Positions 24,260 to 45,187 of a stretch of 64,000 nucleotides of DNA are shown piece after piece; position 1 is the stretch's first letter, and every line of letters starts with the position of its first letter. Made by a program: the position numbers and the translations under genes. Origin of the DNA: a virus. Lineage: Duplodnaviria > Caudoviricetes. The DNA lies in the IMG/VR virus record IMGVR_UViG_3300037313_001869, positions 1 to 64,000 of that record; one strand, 5' to 3'. The notes beneath the pieces are model-generated. The model had not been told where the DNA came from, ran no database searches, and saw only the letters and a list, made by a program, of their open reading frames with translations.

Positions 24260-24670
24260 ATGGTGACCCTCGCGTACGCCTACCTGACCATCATGCTCAT
24301 CGGGCTCGCCGCTGCGGTTGTGTCTGTCTACCAGCACGTAGCCGAGCCCGACCCCTTGGAGAAGGGGGGCTTTTCGGTCTACGTTCTACCTTTTTTCCTC
24401 GCCCTCGTCTGGCCGATCACCCTCGTCGTGGTCTTTGCCCAGGATGCCCATGACCGGCAGAAGCAAAAGATAGAGCGCGCCCAGCGAGAGGCCGAAACGG
24501 AAGCCGCCTTCCGGGCACGGGAGGAAGAGCTTGCCCGTGCTCGGGCCGAGGGGGAGAGGCGGGCCCAAGAGTTCCGCGAGATGCTCAAGAGGAGCGCCGA
24601 GGTTCATCGGCTCATGCAGTCTATTCGGATTGAGCCCTCGACCCGGTTCGAGAGGGACGAGGTGCTCTGA
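24260..24670 (+). CDS. family D membrane protein, RF tag
   Basis: Two hydrophobic segments, LVWP, coiled coil; TRFERDEVL*. Confidence 0.85.
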   Translation: MVTLAYAYLTIMLIGLAAAVVSVYQHVAEPDPLEKGGFSVYVLPFFLALVWPITLVVVFAQDAHDRQKQKIERAQREAETEAAFRAREEELARARAEGERRAQEFREMLKRSAEVHRLMQSIRIEPSTRFERDEVL

Positions 24671-25113
24671 TGGTCGCCTGGCTCTCTGCTCATCTCCCCT
24701 CGTGGCTTCCGGTCTGGGTGCCGCTCACCTACGGCGGCATCACGCTGGTTTTCTACCTTGTCTTGCTCGTTGTTTTCATCAACGATCACGGGTTCTGGAA
24801 GGTCCTTGAAGCGGCCTTGCCACTCGCCCTCTTTGTGGTTCTCTGGCCGGTGTCTGTACCGTTCCTCATTCTCGACATTCGCCGGGACGAGCGGATCGCG
24901 GCCCAGCGGAGGATGGGAGTCGAAGAGGCCCTGCGCCGGGACGAAGAGACACGCGAGAGGCTAGAGCAGGAGCGGCGCCGGCTCGCTCAGCTTCCGCCGC
25001 CTGCCCCTGTGAACCTGCACCCGGTGGTGCCAGCCCAGCCCCCGCCCGAACCTGAACCGACCCCCAAACCCGAGCCCTTTGTGAGCCGTTACGAGAGAGA
25101 CGACGTGCTATGA
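24670..25113 (+). CDS. family D membrane protein, RF tag
   Basis: Two hydrophobic segments, VLWP, Pro linker; SRYERDDVL*. Confidence 0.85.
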   Translation: MVAWLSAHLPSWLPVWVPLTYGGITLVFYLVLLVVFINDHGFWKVLEAALPLALFVVLWPVSVPFLILDIRRDERIAAQRRMGVEEALRRDEETRERLEQERRRLAQLPPPAPVNLHPVVPAQPPPEPEPTPKPEPFVSRYERDDVL

Positions 25114-25610
25114 ACCAAAAAGTTCTTCATGCCTGGGAGTGGTTGTCGGACCACTGGTGGAAGGTCTACCTGATCGGTTTCGCGGTCGGAGTGATCTGGT
25201 TTCTTCTCGCCGTTGCGATCGACGTGTACCGCGGGAAGTACCACCACCGGGAATACGGCCCGTACATCGCCGGAGCGATCTTCTGGCCAATCGCGGTCGT
25301 GATCCTGGTGGTGGTACTTGCCTTCAAGGGCATCCCGGATTTTCTGACCAAGCTGAGCGTCCGGCAGTACCGGAAGCAGCAGGCGCTAGAAGCCATCCGG
25401 CTGGAGAATGAACGCCGGATCGCCCAGATGACCGCAGCGGCCAACCGGCCCCCAACCCCAACCCCAGTGCCCATCGTTGCGGTCTCTCCGGTTCGGGGGG
25501 ACGCGCCCCCGCTTCTGCCTCGGCCGGTACCGACCCCACCCCCGCCTCCTTCTGAGCCCTCAGAGGCGACAGGGCACACCCGCTTCGACAGGGACGAGCC
25601 GCTGCTGTGA
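25110..25610 (+). CDS. family D membrane protein, RF tag
   Basis: Two hydrophobic segments, IFWP, Pro linker; TRFDRDEPLL*. Confidence 0.85.
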   Translation: MNQKVLHAWEWLSDHWWKVYLIGFAVGVIWFLLAVAIDVYRGKYHHREYGPYIAGAIFWPIAVVILVVVLAFKGIPDFLTKLSVRQYRKQQALEAIRLENERRIAQMTAAANRPPTPTPVPIVAVSPVRGDAPPLLPRPVPTPPPPPSEPSEATGHTRFDRDEPLL

Positions 25611-42281: not shown

Positions 42282-42421
42282 GGTACGCGAGCTATCCTTG
42301 TGGTTCGCGGTGCAAGCGAGGGGCGGCGTGGAACCACGGTCACGCGCCCTGACCCCTACCTTGACACCGGTTGGGCCCAGGGCGCAAGGAGGATCGCTCG
42401 GGCGCGGTGTCTATCGTTCCA

Positions 42422-42988
42422 ATGCCAGACTTCTACCCAGGGGGAATCGTCTTCGAGCGCGGCACGGGTGCGCGGGGGTTCGTCCTCGACTCGATCGACA
42501 GGGACACGAGCAACCCCGAGGCCGAAATGCGGGTTTGCTACACCTCCGGGGACCGGCCGATCTACCGGCACGTTCGGGTCTCGAACTGGGAGATGGCCCC
42601 TCGGTCCCGCTACGACCGGCTCCTCGAACCCGATGGCCCCGATGGGTGCTGGCACGGGGTGCGGCCGAAGTGGTTTCTCTGGCAGGGGCCCCAGGGCTTC
42701 TACCCGATCAACGTCACGTCCGACCTCCCTTTGCAGAAGGTGGCTGGTAAGGGGGACTTCTGGGCCTTCCGGGCCCCGCGTGGCTTCTTTCGGGTGAAGA
42801 CCCTGTGCAAGAAGTCGGTCTACCGGATAGGCTACGTCCGTCTTATCGAGCCCAACTACTACGCCGTCTGGCCCGTGGGGCCTCAGGCTACCCCTGGGGC
42901 AAAATGGAAGAGCTGGGTAACCCGGGCGCTCTCGCGCGTCGGTGTAAAGACGGTACCCTATGCCTACCACCTGGAATCTGCACTTTGA
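42422..42988 (+). CDS. hypothetical protein with internal RF-tag-like motif
   Basis: PRSRYDRLLE between two apparent domains. Confidence 0.7.
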   Translation: MPDFYPGGIVFERGTGARGFVLDSIDRDTSNPEAEMRVCYTSGDRPIYRHVRVSNWEMAPRSRYDRLLEPDGPDGCWHGVRPKWFLWQGPQGFYPINVTSDLPLQKVAGKGDFWAFRAPRGFFRVKTLCKKSVYRIGYVRLIEPNYYAVWPVGPQATPGAKWKSWVTRALSRVGVKTVPYAYHLESAL

Positions 42989-43859
42989 CGGCGAGACGCT
43001 CAACGAGCGGATCGAGTGTCGAGGCGAGGTCGAGCACCTTCGAGGCCACCCCGACGTAGAAGGCGTCGAGGTCGAGGCCCGTGAGGCGTGCTTCCACCTG
43101 ACCGTGACCTTTCGAGAAGGGGTCGAGCCGAAGCCCCGACTTCGACAGCGTTACGACCGCAGGTTCTCGACCGAATGCACTCGGTACGTTCCGCGACCGT
43201 GGCGGTCTCCTACGGATCGACAACGAGACGGCATCATCCGTCGAGCGCTTGCTACTCCCGAGGGTAGACAGCGACTCGCCGCGTCCATGGTCAATCCGAT
43301 CCGAACGCGGATCGACTACCAGAGCGTTGCCCGGCGAGCTTTCCTGGTCGAGCCGCTCCAGACCGGGGCTCTGCCCACGTACGATCGGGACCAGGAGCTA
43401 AACAGCTACGACCTCGGGACGGCACCCAGGCGCGTCCAGGTCCCGAATTTCGAGCTGGCCGCGAACCCGACGGTCCAACTGGCTGACATCCGGGAGCGCC
43501 GCTTCAACCTCATCGACCGGGCCACGTCCCGGACCGTCCAGCAGATCCAGGCGACCGAGGATCAGGAAGTCTTCTCGGCCCTCGACACGGCGACGCAAGA
43601 CCTGGTGGTCGAGCCGTTCCAGCAGCTCACGCGCGAGGCCCTCGAAGAGGTGCAGGCCCTCATCAACGCGCAGAGCATCCCCTCTTCGTCGCTCTTCATG
43701 GCAGGCGTTGACCACGGCGATCTGATCAGGTCCCTTCGGCTCCCGAACGAATACCTGCCTCCGGAGAACCCTTGCGCCGAGCAGGCTCTCGAAGCTTCCG
43801 GCCCGGAGCTTCCCCCGGTCCCGAGCCGGTTCGATCGGGTGCTGGAAATGGCGGCCTGA
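42960..43859 (+). CDS. truncated major-capsid-like protein, RF tag
   Basis: GR.RLA.SM.NPIR.RIDY....RR.FLVE.L..GALP.YD.D, VP.FELA.NP, RRFNLIDR, IQA.ED..F; ends PSRFDRVLEMAA*. Confidence 0.6.
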   Translation: MPTTWNLHFDGETLNERIECRGEVEHLRGHPDVEGVEVEAREACFHLTVTFREGVEPKPRLRQRYDRRFSTECTRYVPRPWRSPTDRQRDGIIRRALATPEGRQRLAASMVNPIRTRIDYQSVARRAFLVEPLQTGALPTYDRDQELNSYDLGTAPRRVQVPNFELAANPTVQLADIRERRFNLIDRATSRTVQQIQATEDQEVFSALDTATQDLVVEPFQQLTREALEEVQALINAQSIPSSSLFMAGVDHGDLIRSLRLPNEYLPPENPCAEQALEASGPELPPVPSRFDRVLEMAA

Positions 43860-43865
43860 AACGCC

Positions 43866-43890
43866 GAAGGGGCCCATCGGGCCCCTTCTT
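43866..43890. terminator. hairpin terminator at convergent junction
   Basis: GAAGGGGCCC-ATC-GGGCCCCTTC. Confidence 0.75.
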
Positions 43891-43891
43891 C

Positions 43892-45187
43892 TCAGCTTGC
43901 AAGCTGCGGCGTTTCTTGGAGCTGGACCTCGCCGCTCGGGGCCGCGACCACCTTCGGTTTGCGGGTGCGCTTGGGCTTCGGGGTCTCGGTCTTGGTGGGG
44001 TCCACGGCCCCTTCCTTGGCGAGGGTGTCCTTGACGGCAGGCTTGGTGCCCGTGGCTTCGCCCTTGATCTCGTGCATCTCGTCGATGGCTGCGAGCACCT
44101 CGGCGAACGAGTCGTAGTTGAGCTGCTCGGCCGCCTCACGCAGGTAGTCCTGCGACATGCCCTCGGTCTTCTCGACCAGGAGGTTCAGCTCCTTATCCGA
44201 GAGCTTGCCCTCGGGGAGGTAGCCGGAGAGCACGACCCTGCGCTCGGCCGGCGTCGGAAGCTTGAAGCGCCGCACGAGAAGCCGGCCCGGCCGGACGAAG
44301 CCAGGGTCCATGCCCTTGGCCGAGTTGGCCGTGAGGATGATGGTCGTCTCGGGGTGCGTCGCCTTGACCCGTTCGAGGATCTCCAGGATGGTCGGCATGA
44401 CCTTGGCAAGATCGGCCTTGTCCACGTCGTCGAGGATCATCACGTCCGGGGCGAGCTGGGTCAGAAGGTCGCCGAACTCCTTCGCCCGGACATGCAGGAG
44501 CGAGGTCGCGTCCATCTTGCAGGTCCGGTAGCCAAGAGCCTCGGCGAACCGGAGCGCGAAGGTCGTCTTGCCCGTGCCCGGAGCGCCGAGAAAGAGGTAC
44601 GTCTTGGCGACGTTGTCCTTCAGGTACCGGAGGTGGCGGATCTGAAACGCCTTCAGGTCGCCCTGGGCCTTGCCGTAGAGCGGGTTGGCGCTCCGAGGGA
44701 ACGTCTCGTACTCGGTCTTCGTCCGCCACCCGTAGGACGAGACCGAGACATGAACCCGACCCTCGTGCTCGCCCCAGAAGCGCGCCATCACGGGTCCGAA
44801 CTGGAGGCCGGACGAGTAGTAGTAGTTCTCGTCGACCTCGCCGTTGCACGCGCTGAAGTAGAGGGTGCCCGAGCCGTCGAGCGCCGTCGCCTCGATCACC
44901 GTCTCGTACGGGGTGAGTGCGTAGCGCCGGGTCGAGAAGGAAGCGCCGAGCGGGGTCTTGAAGAAGAGGGTGACGAACTGCTCGCTCCGCCGGGGCTCGA
45001 AGCCCCGGTCGCGGGCCATTTCAGCGAGGCTTGTGTAGGAACCCATGCCGATCGAATGCACCGACTCGGCGATGGCTACAGCCTTGACGACCACCGCCAG
45101 CGGTCCGTCGTCCTTGGTCGGGAGCTTCTGGACGACATCGCTGGCGATCCTCAGAACTTTGCGGAGCTTGAGCGGGAGAATGAGCAT
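43892..45187 (-). CDS. AAA+ ATPase
   Basis: GAPGTGKT, ILDDVD, TAN, RPGR; GGTGTA 10 nt before ATG. Confidence 0.9.
   Translation of the reverse strand: MLILPLKLRKVLRIASDVVQKLPTKDDGPLAVVVKAVAIAESVHSIGMGSYTSLAEMARDRGFEPRRSEQFVTLFFKTPLGASFSTRRYALTPYETVIEATALDGSGTLYFSACNGEVDENYYYSSGLQFGPVMARFWGEHEGRVHVSVSSYGWRTKTEYETFPRSANPLYGKAQGDLKAFQIRHLRYLKDNVAKTYLFLGAPGTGKTTFALRFAEALGYRTCKMDATSLLHVRAKEFGDLLTQLAPDVMILDDVDKADLAKVMPTILEILERVKATHPETTIILTANSAKGMDPGFVRPGRLLVRRFKLPTPAERRVVLSGYLPEGKLSDKELNLLVEKTEGMSQDYLREAAEQLNYDSFAEVLAAIDEMHEIKGEATGTKPAVKDTLAKEGAVDPTKTETPKPKRTRKPKVVAAPSGEVQLQETPQLAS

What the first reader, a model, noticed from the sequence alone, without database searches (positions are those of the whole stretch)
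42960..43859. Stand-alone truncated major-capsid-like gene carrying the RF tag
Seen: residues about 88-230 match the pattern I recall from N-terminal halves of large-phage major capsid proteins. It has an unrelated N-terminal extension, no C-terminal half, its own GGTGTA motif, the tag, and no structural neighbours. Inference: a repurposed capsid fragment, such as a decoy for capsid-sensing immunity (CapRel-type sensing is known) or an assembly interference factor.
Basis: inference. Interest (0 to 1): 0.7.

Follow-up and report, generated by a model that had tools for sequence, protein, structure and literature searches.

The report
Tagged capsid-protein fragment in giant phage
A 435-kb phage keeps, far from its head genes, an intact gene that fuses a small new domain to the front two-thirds of its capsid protein and ends in the phage's own address-tag peptide. 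The same design recurs in related phages that use such tags, so it is a working capsid mimic tied to the tag system, not a gene remnant.

Summary
ORF 42960-43859 (+), 299 aa, matches G-type HK97 major capsid proteins over residues 86-260 (PHROG 2522 E 6e-26; phage G gp27, PDB 6WKK, E 2e-28). It lacks the last ~95 capsid residues. It has an 85-residue N-terminal extension, its own GGTGTA motif and the R[FY][DE]R C-terminal tag. The true capsid gene lies 172 kb away in a normal head module.

It is not a decaying copy. At least 23 sequence clusters from metagenomes share the design: ferredoxin-like N-domain, capsid N-arm, variable middle, tag. The N-arm stretch is the best conserved part (56% against 21-33% elsewhere).

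The tag follows the genome. Ours has 64 RFDR-tagged genes. A relative has 15 LWERL-tagged ORFs, and its family member ends in LWERL. A tag-free relative with a similar capsid protein has neither tags nor this gene.

Two further capsid-protein fragments sit in other non-structural genes of this phage.

Best reading (about 35%): an adaptor that links the tagged proteins to the capsid or its assembly partners through capsid-arm mimicry. Main rival (about 20%): a bait for host capsid sensors. Neither function was tested here. The tag itself had already been noted in this scan, on another part of the same genome.

The parts
42941..42946 (+). GGTGTA motif, 13 nt upstream of the ATG. It is a promoter-class or start-site signal of the non-structural genome regions.
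   Evidence: Read directly from the sequence. 54 genes carry it 6-16 nt before their start. All lie at 0-116 kb or 245-435 kb, and none lies in the 116-245 kb block that holds the head module.
42960..43859 (+). Whole gene (P0001, 299 aa plus TGA stop).
42960..43163 (+). N-domain, residues 1-68: beta-alpha-beta-beta-alpha, ferredoxin/ACT-like. It is specific to this protein family and occurs once per genome.
   Evidence: AF2 pLDDT 89-97. Best fold matches are an S6 permutant, ACT and HMA domains at Z 6-7, which is generic. A family HMM finds it once in G000, once in G001 and never in W01.
43164..43214 (+). Arg-rich, low-confidence linker, residues 69-85. The tag-like RYDR at residues 63-66 lies in the N-domain's last helix, just before this linker.
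43215..43745 (+). Capsid-derived region, residues 86-262. It holds the N-arm helices, an E-loop 9 residues shorter than in the capsid protein, the spine helix and the first A-domain helices. It corresponds to capsid residues ~6-195 of 292.
43221..43397 (+). The conserved core of the family, residues 88-146: N-arm helices plus the first strand (GR.RLAASM..P.R.R.DYQ..AR....V..L..GALP.YD).
   Evidence: Mean pairwise identity is 56% among the 23 family members, against 21-33% in all other segments. All capsid-invariant residues are kept.
43746..43817 (+). Pro-rich linker, residues 263-286, with the family's conserved Pro-Cys element.
43818..43856 (+). C-terminal tag, residues 287-299 (VPSRFDRVLEMAA). 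The core R290-F-D-R293 is followed by 6 residues.
43866..43888 (.). Perfect 9-bp GC-rich hairpin between this gene and the convergent AAA ATPase gene (43892-45187, minus strand). It is a likely two-way terminator.
   Evidence: Read directly from the sequence. The consensus scan did not list it, because it lacks a long T run.

Best explanation
P0001 is a functional chimeric protein and a member of an apparently undescribed family. It has four parts: a ferredoxin-like N-domain, the front two-thirds of a phage-G-type HK97 capsid protein, a Pro-rich linker, and the genome's own C-terminal tag.

Shown here:
- The family is conserved.
- It occurs once in each of the two tag-bearing genomes examined and is absent from a tag-free relative.
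- It carries the tag dialect of its genome.
- Its only strongly constrained part is the capsid N-arm and first strand.

Inferred: the N-arm segment mimics the arm of the real capsid protein, and so binds whatever that arm binds in the procapsid. Candidates are a neighbouring capsid subunit, the scaffold or the decoration protein. The tag plugs the protein into the network formed by the 64 tagged proteins. The protein would then be an adaptor that couples tagged proteins to the capsid or to capsid assembly. In logic it is a cargo-loading or tethering device like encapsulin targeting peptides or the T4 capsid-targeting sequence, but with a capsid fragment supplied in trans.

The N-domain is a candidate tag-binding or oligomerisation module. 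That point rests on weak evidence only.
For: - Homology to G-type capsid proteins is decisive at sequence level.
- The gene is intact, its start is fixed and its codon bias is normal.
- The family holds 23 clusters with one architecture, every one ending in a tag-like peptide.
- The N-arm is 56% identical within the family, against 28% for the N-domain and 21-33% elsewhere. All capsid-invariant N-arm residues are retained although the rest of the fold is dispensable; most members replace it with a PxWxxxG beta-module.
- On a weakly resolved 59-column tree, most family members group together and away from the genome's own capsid protein, so this does not look like a recent duplicate.
- Co-occurrence and dialect. 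G000 has 64 RFDR-tagged genes, and P0001 ends in RFDR. G001 has 15 ORFs ending in LWERL, and its member P0155 ends in LWERL. W01 has a closely similar capsid protein but no tags, no N-domain and no second N-arm.
- P0001 and P0162 are the only tagged proteins with any recognisable homology, and both match the capsid protein.
- Other capsid fragments sit in non-structural genes of the same phage, P0162 and P0163.
- As an analogy, encapsulin C-terminal targeting peptides bind the N-helix plus P-domain of an HK97-fold shell protein (PMC11664910).
Against: - No binding, virion or expression data exist.
- Three of the 64 tagged proteins are two-pass membrane proteins. They cannot be capsid cargo.
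- The gene belongs to the GGTGTA promoter class, which is absent from the head-module block. It may therefore be made at a different time from the capsid protein.
- If the protein is the adaptor, the reason it carries a tag itself is unexplained.
- The AF2 deletion test for docking of the tag on the N-domain is confounded by a register shift in the alignment.
- Covariation between the N-domain and the tag dialect is not significant once relatedness is allowed for.
- Co-occurrence rests on three genomes, one of them only 38% complete.
- The predicted fragment does not superpose convincingly on solved HK97 structures.
Confidence: 0.35

Rival explanations
1. Bait or decoy for host capsid-sensing immunity. 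The N-arm segment, like the other capsid fragments, copies epitopes that host sensors recognise on unassembled capsid protein. Sensors of this kind include Avs7/Dsr1, CapRel and Lit. The protein is made before the real capsid protein. It would soak up the sensor, or use the tag to hand it to whatever the tag recruits.
For: - The gene belongs to the non-structural promoter class and lies among DNA-metabolism and defence-like genes.
- Only the capsid-invariant N-arm is constrained. That is what mimicry of a sensed, conserved epitope predicts.
- Several different capsid fragments sit in separate small proteins, one of them tagged.
- The tagged proteins are small, hypervariable and not shared between relatives, like an arms-race arsenal.
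- Sensing of capsid proteins by bacterial immunity is established (bioRxiv 10.64898/2026.01.04.697583).
Against: - The family's N-arms resemble each other more than they resemble capsid proteins (56% against 44%). P0001 is 47% identical to its own capsid N-arm and up to 71% to another family member. It does not track its cognate capsid protein.
- A mimic of an activating ligand risks triggering the sensor.
- My literature search found no phage-encoded capsid decoy.
- The host and its defences are unknown.
Confidence: 0.2
2. Regulator or minor component of head assembly. It would co-assemble with, cap or nucleate the real capsid protein through its N-arm, E-loop and spine helix. Possible roles are setting the timing, place or size of assembly, excluding a competing phage, or serving at a special vertex.
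For: - P0001 keeps the N-arm, E-loop and spine helix, the inter-subunit elements of the HK97 fold.
- Capsid-protein homologues that redirect assembly are known, for example SaPIbov5 Ccm (PMC8569155).
- Tagged membrane proteins could anchor such a factor.
Against: - Most family members have lost the E-loop return strand and the spine helix and keep only about 55 capsid residues. Co-assembly into a lattice is therefore unlikely for the family as a whole.
- The gene lies 172 kb from the head module and has a different promoter class.
- The tag-free relative builds its head with a closely similar capsid protein and no such gene.
Confidence: 0.15
3. An ordinary member of the tagged protein set. The capsid-derived stretch serves only as a stable helical or oligomerisation module, with no link to the capsid.
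For:
- The predicted fragment is mostly helical and does not look like a closed HK97 fold.
Against: - Every residue that is invariant in real capsid proteins is also invariant here.
- It is the only tagged protein conserved between the two tag-bearing phages.
- Further capsid fragments occur in the genome.
Confidence: 0.15
4. A decaying duplicate of the capsid gene with no function.
For: The capsid fold is truncated. GC3 dips to 0.56-0.62 over residues 51-100.
Against: - The frame is intact and the start is fixed.
- The family is conserved, with a constant architecture in at least 23 clusters.
- The N-arm shows selective constraint.
- The tag is matched to the genome.
Confidence: 0.02

Closest known systems
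Phage G gp27-type HK97 major capsid protein (PDB 6WKK; PHROG 2522), including this genome's own capsid protein at 215185-216063
   Same: Clear homology over the N-arm, E-loop, spine helix and first A-domain helices (E 1e-26 to 1e-28). All invariant N-arm residues are kept.
   Different: It lacks the last ~95 residues (the rest of the A-domain and the P-domain strands). It has an extra N-domain and a tag, lies outside the head module, and belongs to a separate and apparently older lineage.
Encapsulin Family 1 cargo loading: a short C-terminal targeting peptide bound by the N-helix plus P-domain of an HK97-fold shell protein (PMC11664910)
   Same: Short C-terminal peptides behind flexible linkers on many unrelated proteins. 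The part of the HK97 fold kept in P0001 (N-helix and P-domain helix) is the part that forms the peptide-binding site in encapsulins.
   Different: No binding has been shown here. The tag dialects differ between phages whose capsid proteins are closely similar, so the capsid protein itself is an unlikely receptor. Some tagged proteins are membrane proteins.
T4 capsid-targeting sequence on internal proteins (IPI-III, Alt) (own knowledge)
   Same: A shared short peptide on many fast-evolving small proteins of a large phage.
   Different: The T4 signal is N-terminal, binds the scaffolding core and is cut off by the prohead protease. Here the peptide is C-terminal, no cleavage is known, and a capsid-fragment protein is part of the set.
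SaPIbov5 Ccm, a capsid-protein homologue that redirects helper-phage capsid assembly (PMC8569155, PMC5052747)
   Same: A capsid-protein paralogue encoded outside the head module that acts on assembly.
   Different: Ccm is described there as a homologue of the helper phage's capsid protein, encoded by a satellite; that it is a complete HK97-fold protein which co-assembles into shells is my own recollection. P0001 is truncated and chimeric, and the phage itself encodes it.
Encapsulin Family 4: heavily truncated HK97 fold, A-domain only (PMC11664910)
   Same: A stand-alone fragment of the HK97 fold kept as a functional protein.
   Different: The opposite part of the fold is retained: the N-arm, E-loop and spine helix rather than the A-domain.
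Capsid-sensing bacterial immunity: Avs7/Dsr1 (bioRxiv 10.64898/2026.01.04.697583); CapRel and the Lit/Gol peptide (own knowledge)
   Same: These show that short or partial capsid-protein surfaces are biologically 'read' inside infected cells.
   Different: They are host sensors. A phage-encoded capsid mimic that counters them has not been described, and none was tested here.

Membership tests
G-type HK97 major capsid protein (PHROG 2522 / 6WKK) | Significant sequence similarity to family members | tested here: met
   PHROG 2522 E 5.6e-26. 6WKK E 1.7e-28. Own capsid protein 46% identical over 128 aa.
G-type HK97 major capsid protein (PHROG 2522 / 6WKK) | Complete fold, including the C-terminal A-domain sheet and P-domain strands (capsid residues ~196-292) | tested here: not met
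   The alignment ends near residue 260. A profile of the capsid C-terminal third does not hit P0001, whereas it hits the three true capsid proteins at about 1e-38.
G-type HK97 major capsid protein (PHROG 2522 / 6WKK) | Encoded in the head module next to the protease, scaffold and decoration genes | tested here: not met
   The head module lies at 216-220 kb, with the capsid gene at 215185-216063. P0001 lies at 43 kb among non-structural genes.
G-type HK97 major capsid protein (PHROG 2522 / 6WKK) | Predicted structure superposes on solved HK97 capsid proteins | tested here: inconclusive
   Foldseek found no match. VIA-align lists the 80alpha, phi29, lambda and S6 capsid proteins and T. maritima encapsulin with 143-166 aligned residues, but only at Z 3.4-4.5.
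P0001-like family ('class C': N-domain + capsid N-arm + tag) | N-terminal MP..W.L.F...LDERI..R beta-alpha-beta-beta-alpha domain | tested here: met
   Alignment A3. Family HMM E 3.8e-22 on P0001. AF2 pLDDT 89-97.
P0001-like family ('class C': N-domain + capsid N-arm + tag) | Capsid N-arm and first strand placed about 80-150 residues from the N-terminus | tested here: met
P0001-like family ('class C': N-domain + capsid N-arm + tag) | PxWxxxG beta-module between the N-arm and the tag | tested here: not met
   P0001 keeps capsid sequence (spine helix to residue 262) where most of the other members carry the module. Several of them (e.g. P0143, P0155) keep part of the spine helix as well. P0001 is therefore an atypical member, the most capsid-like of the family.
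P0001-like family ('class C': N-domain + capsid N-arm + tag) | C-terminal aromatic-acidic-Arg tag in the dialect of the host genome | tested here: met
   P0001 ends in RFDR in the RFDR genome. P0155 ends in LWERL in the LWERL genome.
R[FY][DE]R C-terminal tag set of this phage | Core motif within the last 14 residues, behind a Pro-rich stretch | tested here: met
   The core sits at residues 290-293 and 6 residues follow it (range in the set 1-8). Four Pro residues lie in the 12 residues before the core, against a genome mean of 0.81.
Encapsulin-type cargo loading | Targeting peptide binds the N-helix/P-domain pocket of the shell protein | not testable with these tools
   No complex prediction was available. 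Only monomer AF2 could be run.
T4-type capsid-targeting sequence | N-terminal peptide removed by the prohead protease | tested here: not met
   The tag is C-terminal. Cleavage was not testable.

The most novel reading that the evidence does not exclude
A lineage of giant phages runs a private protein-addressing system. Dozens of fast-evolving proteins carry a genome-specific C-terminal peptide. One conserved protein, built from a fragment of the capsid protein, is the system's link to the capsid, and possibly its receptor. It would load or tether the whole tagged set to the giant head. Further capsid 'shards' in other proteins (P0162, P0163) would work as additional docking or mimicry elements.
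Probability: 0.3. Interest if true: 0.85.

Novelty: new variant of a known kind. Interest (0 to 1): 0.7.

Why it matters
The C-terminal tag on about one in nine proteins of this phage had no reader, no partner and no link to any known process. P0001 and the shorter P0162 are the only tagged proteins with recognisable ancestry, and that ancestry is the capsid protein. P0001's family is also the only tagged protein conserved between tag-bearing phages, and it follows the local tag dialect.

This gives an experimental handle on the tag system: one protein to delete, pull down or co-fold.

It also shows that pieces of the HK97 capsid fold (N-arm, P-domain strands) can be reused as stand-alone modules in non-structural proteins. 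Such reuse would be of interest for three fields: how giant capsids are loaded, capsid mimicry against host immunity, and engineering of cargo loading into phage heads.

Tried and rejected
1. AF2 deletion test. Without the N-domain, the tag region falls from pLDDT 67-76 (a helix) to 34-43. In the re-made alignment, however, the homologues' tags sit two columns out of register with P0001's tag. The drop therefore cannot be put down to loss of the N-domain. I count it as no more than a hint.

2. Covariation of N-domain positions 23 and 47 with the tag dialect. The raw tables are striking: a W tag goes with an aliphatic residue at position 47 in 9 of 9 cases, and an F/Y tag with an aromatic residue in 8 of 12. 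Only two independent pairs lie on supported branches, so the result is not significant.

3. Fold searches. Foldseek found no HK97 match for either model. VIA-align found only weak ones. The N-domain gives only generic ferredoxin/ACT/HMA-like matches, and the ESM Atlas gave nothing useful.

4. Conserved neighbourhood. The convergent AAA ATPase is not near the family member in G001, so it is no evident partner.

5. Capsid protein as the tag receptor. This is unlikely. The G000 and G001 capsid proteins look about 90% identical by eye in the printed sequences (not computed), while the tag dialects differ completely.

Scans for P0143, P0068 and P0044 found nothing. IMG/VR scans with the family alignment returned only true capsid genes.

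7. A shared N-terminal leader on genes near other capsid genes: none found.

8. Three-way gene-content comparison to find the tag reader. It left 32 candidates, too many to be useful.

9. dN/dS. The nearest family members are only about 40% identical overall, so synonymous sites are saturated.

Full report
**What is there.** The window is the first 64 kb of a 435,218-bp viral record with direct terminal repeats. ORF 42960-43859 (+) encodes 299 aa (P0001).
- An in-frame TAA at 42945-47 lies inside the GGTGTA(A) motif, so the ATG at 42960 is the first possible start.
- The frame holds no stop and no TTA. Earlier notes of this scan read TTA as a fourth stop codon in this phage.
- GC3 is 0.78, within the range of this genome's genes.
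- A perfect 9-bp GC hairpin (43866-43888) separates the gene from a convergent AAA ATPase gene.

**Capsid similarity.**
- PHROG 2522 'major head protein' matches residues 88-258 (profile 42-225 of 318) at E 5.6e-26.
- The solved Bacillus phage G capsid protein gp27 (6WKK) matches residues 86-213 (chain 6-142 of 280) at E 1.7e-28.
- Pfam gives nothing above threshold.
- The genome holds a second match at 215185-216063 (-), a 292-aa full-length G-type capsid protein (P0002). It is 46% identical to P0001 over 128 residues.
- P0002 sits in a canonical head module: protease, Q-rich scaffold-like gene, decoration-like gene, capsid gene.
- A profile of capsid residues 140-200 still hits P0001 residues 219-264 (E 2e-5). 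A profile of the last third (196-292) does not.

P0001 therefore carries capsid residues ~6-195, with the E-loop 9 residues shorter. The last ~95 residues are replaced by a Pro-rich linker and the tag.

**Neighbours.** They are non-structural: DUF1653, an AAA ATPase, a DUF262/GmrSD_N protein, an SNF2 helicase, DNA methyltransferases and unknowns.

**A family, not a relic.** An exhaustive HMMER search gave 742 hits. They fall into three groups.
- Group A: true capsid proteins of 280-370 aa.
- Group B: about 48 clusters of 130-230-aa 'half capsid' proteins from AT-rich phages. These were not followed up.
- Group C: the P0001-like family, at least 23 clusters.

Most Group C members begin with the same MP..W.L.F...LDERI domain and carry the capsid N-arm about 80-150 residues in; two short ones (P0010, P0034) lack most of the domain. 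All end in an aromatic-acidic-Arg peptide behind a conserved Pro-Cys and Pro-rich stretch. About half keep the E-loop return strand. All but P0001 have a PxWxxxG beta-module where P0001 keeps capsid sequence through residue 262 (P0143 and P0155 also keep part of the spine helix). P0001 is thus the most capsid-like member.

Mean pairwise identity within the family is 56% for the N-arm plus first strand (residues 88-146). It is 28% for the N-domain, 33% for the tag and 21-29% elsewhere. Every residue invariant in real capsid proteins is also invariant here: G102, R103, L106, A107, M110, P113, R115, D119, Y120, R125, V130, L133, G136, A137, P139 and Y141.

On a weakly resolved 59-column tree, 16 of the 23 members group together. 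P0001's nearest row is another family member (71% identity), not its own capsid protein (47%).

**The tag, and the link between the family and the tag.** In this genome 64 of 597 called genes have R[FY][DE]R in their last 14 residues. The internal frequency predicts about 0.9, and a control window gave 1.
- One to eight residues follow the core (mode 4; P0001 has 6).
- Pro is enriched threefold before the core.
- All tagged genes lie at 0-100 kb or 250-435 kb.

I fetched two relatives whole.
- G001 (IMG/VR 3300028920_000027; 182 kb, 38% complete) has a closely similar capsid protein. It has no RFDR tags, but 15 ORFs end in ..P[ST]LWERL.. (control 0). Its single family member, P0155, ends in PPTLWERLSAA. 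That gene lies 86 kb from the capsid gene.
- W01 (LR745208.1; 485 kb) has a similar capsid protein but no tag enrichment, no N-domain and no second N-arm.

So the family occurs with the tag system and uses the local dialect, on three genomes. The capsid proteins stay nearly constant while the dialects differ, so the capsid protein is an unlikely tag receptor.

None of ten tagged proteins in the window has a Pfam match. Of all 64 tagged proteins, only P0001 and P0162 find anything in G001 or W01, and both find the capsid protein.

**Promoter class.** GGTGTA is only mildly over-represented overall (229 sites against about 170 expected). It peaks sharply 10 nt before start codons. The 54 such genes all lie at 0-116 kb or 245-435 kb, and none lies in the 116-245 kb block that holds the head module. 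P0001 and the AAA ATPase gene each have their own copy. P0001 is therefore transcribed with the non-structural genes. That these are early or middle genes is an inference.

**More capsid fragments.** The profile of the capsid C-terminal third finds two further genes in this phage, besides the three true capsid proteins, among 15,532 six-frame ORFs.
- P0162 (289724-290209, minus strand; 161 aa) has both a GGTGTA motif and a tag. Its residues 92-121 resemble capsid residues 225-253 (profile E 1.3e-6). PHROG 2522 and 6WKK are also its top, weak hits.
- P0163 (330577-330939, plus strand; 120 aa) is untagged and has a normal ribosome-binding site. Its residues 2-36 are 47% identical to capsid residues 241-276.

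W01 has neither. Capsid 'shards' in non-structural proteins are thus a wider feature of this phage.

**Structure.** AF2 on a 68-row alignment gave mean pLDDT 76.9.
- Residues 1-68: a confident beta-alpha-beta-beta-alpha domain.
- Residues 86-127: N-arm helices.
- The E-loop: low confidence.
- Residues 184-213: the spine helix.
- Two further helices, then a tag helix at 290-298 with pLDDT about 76.

The N-domain gives only generic ferredoxin/ACT/HMA matches. The capsid part alone finds no HK97 structure by Foldseek and only weak ones by VIA-align (Z 3.4-4.5 over 143-166 residues). The homology rests on sequence, and the fragment is not predicted to close into an HK97 fold by itself. The deletion test and the covariation test for an N-domain/tag contact are both inconclusive.

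**Interpretation.** Four things are shown: the family is conserved, it is tied to the tag system, its constraint is concentrated on the capsid arm, and it lies outside the head module. The rest is inferred. The arm keeps the residues that matter in a real capsid protein although the rest of the fold is dispensable. It most likely engages a partner of the real arm.
- I favour an adaptor between the tagged set and the capsid or its assembly partners (0.35).
- The bait-for-host-sensors reading explains the promoter class and the several shards equally well. It fits less well with the arm not tracking its own capsid protein (0.2).
- Assembly regulator: 0.15.
- Ordinary tagged protein: 0.15.
- Decaying duplicate: effectively excluded.

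Three two-pass membrane proteins carry the tag. The tag is therefore a general docking peptide, not purely a capsid-cargo signal.

**Novelty.** Literature searches found capsid paralogues that redirect assembly (Ccm), truncated HK97 proteins (encapsulin Family 4), terminal cargo peptides (encapsulins) and host sensing of capsid proteins. They found no N-terminal capsid fragment fused to a new domain and a proteome-wide tag. The tag itself was noted earlier in this scan, on another part of the same genome.

Noticed in passing
G000 289724-290209 (-) = L135:724-1209 (-), protein P0162: A second tagged, GGTGTA-driven protein with a capsid fragment. Residues 92-121 resemble capsid residues 225-253 (profile E 1.3e-6; PHROG 2522 E 0.004; 6WKK E 0.04). 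It also has the PN.NGD.FP motif seen in linkers of the P0001-like family.
   Followed up: partly
G000 330577-330939 (+) = L136:577-939, protein P0163: An untagged 120-aa protein whose first 36 residues are 47% identical to capsid residues 241-276 (the LTVLSADDPK...GF strand). Its start is coupled to the upstream gene's stop, and a GGGAGG ribosome-binding site precedes it.
   Followed up: partly
Metagenomic proteins P0016, P0022-P0026, P0044, P0063 and about 40 more: A large set of 130-230-aa 'half capsid' proteins from AT-rich phages. They start MEHP.II.S.GK, carry the N-arm, the E-loop (often with an insert) and the spine helix, and end just after ..ED..IF.ALD... They could be a separate truncated-capsid family or first exons of split genes. 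Their genomic context could not be retrieved.
   Followed up: partly
Metagenomic capsid proteins P0005, P0014, P0017, P0027, P0084, P0112, P0122, P0123 and others: Many G-type capsid proteins of other lineages begin M[DN]R[YF][SDE]I.LGK.PPP plus a Lys/Pro-rich leader. Some also end in ..NR[YF]Q[IL]LR... These are short Arg-aromatic peptides on flexible linkers attached to the capsid protein itself. Any relation to the RFDR tag is open.
   Followed up: no
G000 72003-72770 (-) and 319266-320123 (-); G001 113064-113846: Two papain-like (Peptidase_C1) genes are shared by the two tag-bearing phages and absent from the tag-free relative. In G001 the peptidase lies about 1 kb from the P0001-like gene. 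The tag core, aromatic-acidic-Arg, would suit a papain-type P2 preference. This is one of 32 genes with that presence pattern, so it is a lead only.
   Followed up: partly
window 24260-25610 (+): Three adjacent tagged proteins each have two hydrophobic 19-residue segments, a charged coiled-coil-like stretch, a Pro-rich linker and the tag.
   Followed up: yes
Whole genome; window sites include 42941, 14029, 36459 and 55458: GGTGTA followed by about 10 nt and a start codon precedes 54 genes and is absent from 116-245 kb. The spacing leaves almost no room for a leader or a Shine-Dalgarno site, which suggests leaderless or very short-leader mRNAs for this gene class.
   Followed up: partly
G000 216101-216727 (-) and 216833-218101 (-): The decoration-like and scaffold-like head genes are among those that end at TTA when TTA is read as a stop. 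Read by table 11, the decoration ORF would run 185 nt into the capsid gene. This agrees with the earlier TTA-as-stop notes.
   Followed up: partly
G000 409506-409793 (-): A 96-aa ORF starts with a weak look-alike of the capsid N-arm helix (..KQKEDLIVHYLSYPEGRDKLAQS..; N-arm profile E 0.0012). This is borderline.
   Followed up: no
window 42371-42988 (+): The upstream gene overlaps P0001 by 29 nt, contains the GGTGTA motif in its 3' end, and has an internal tag-like SRYDRLL.
   Followed up: no
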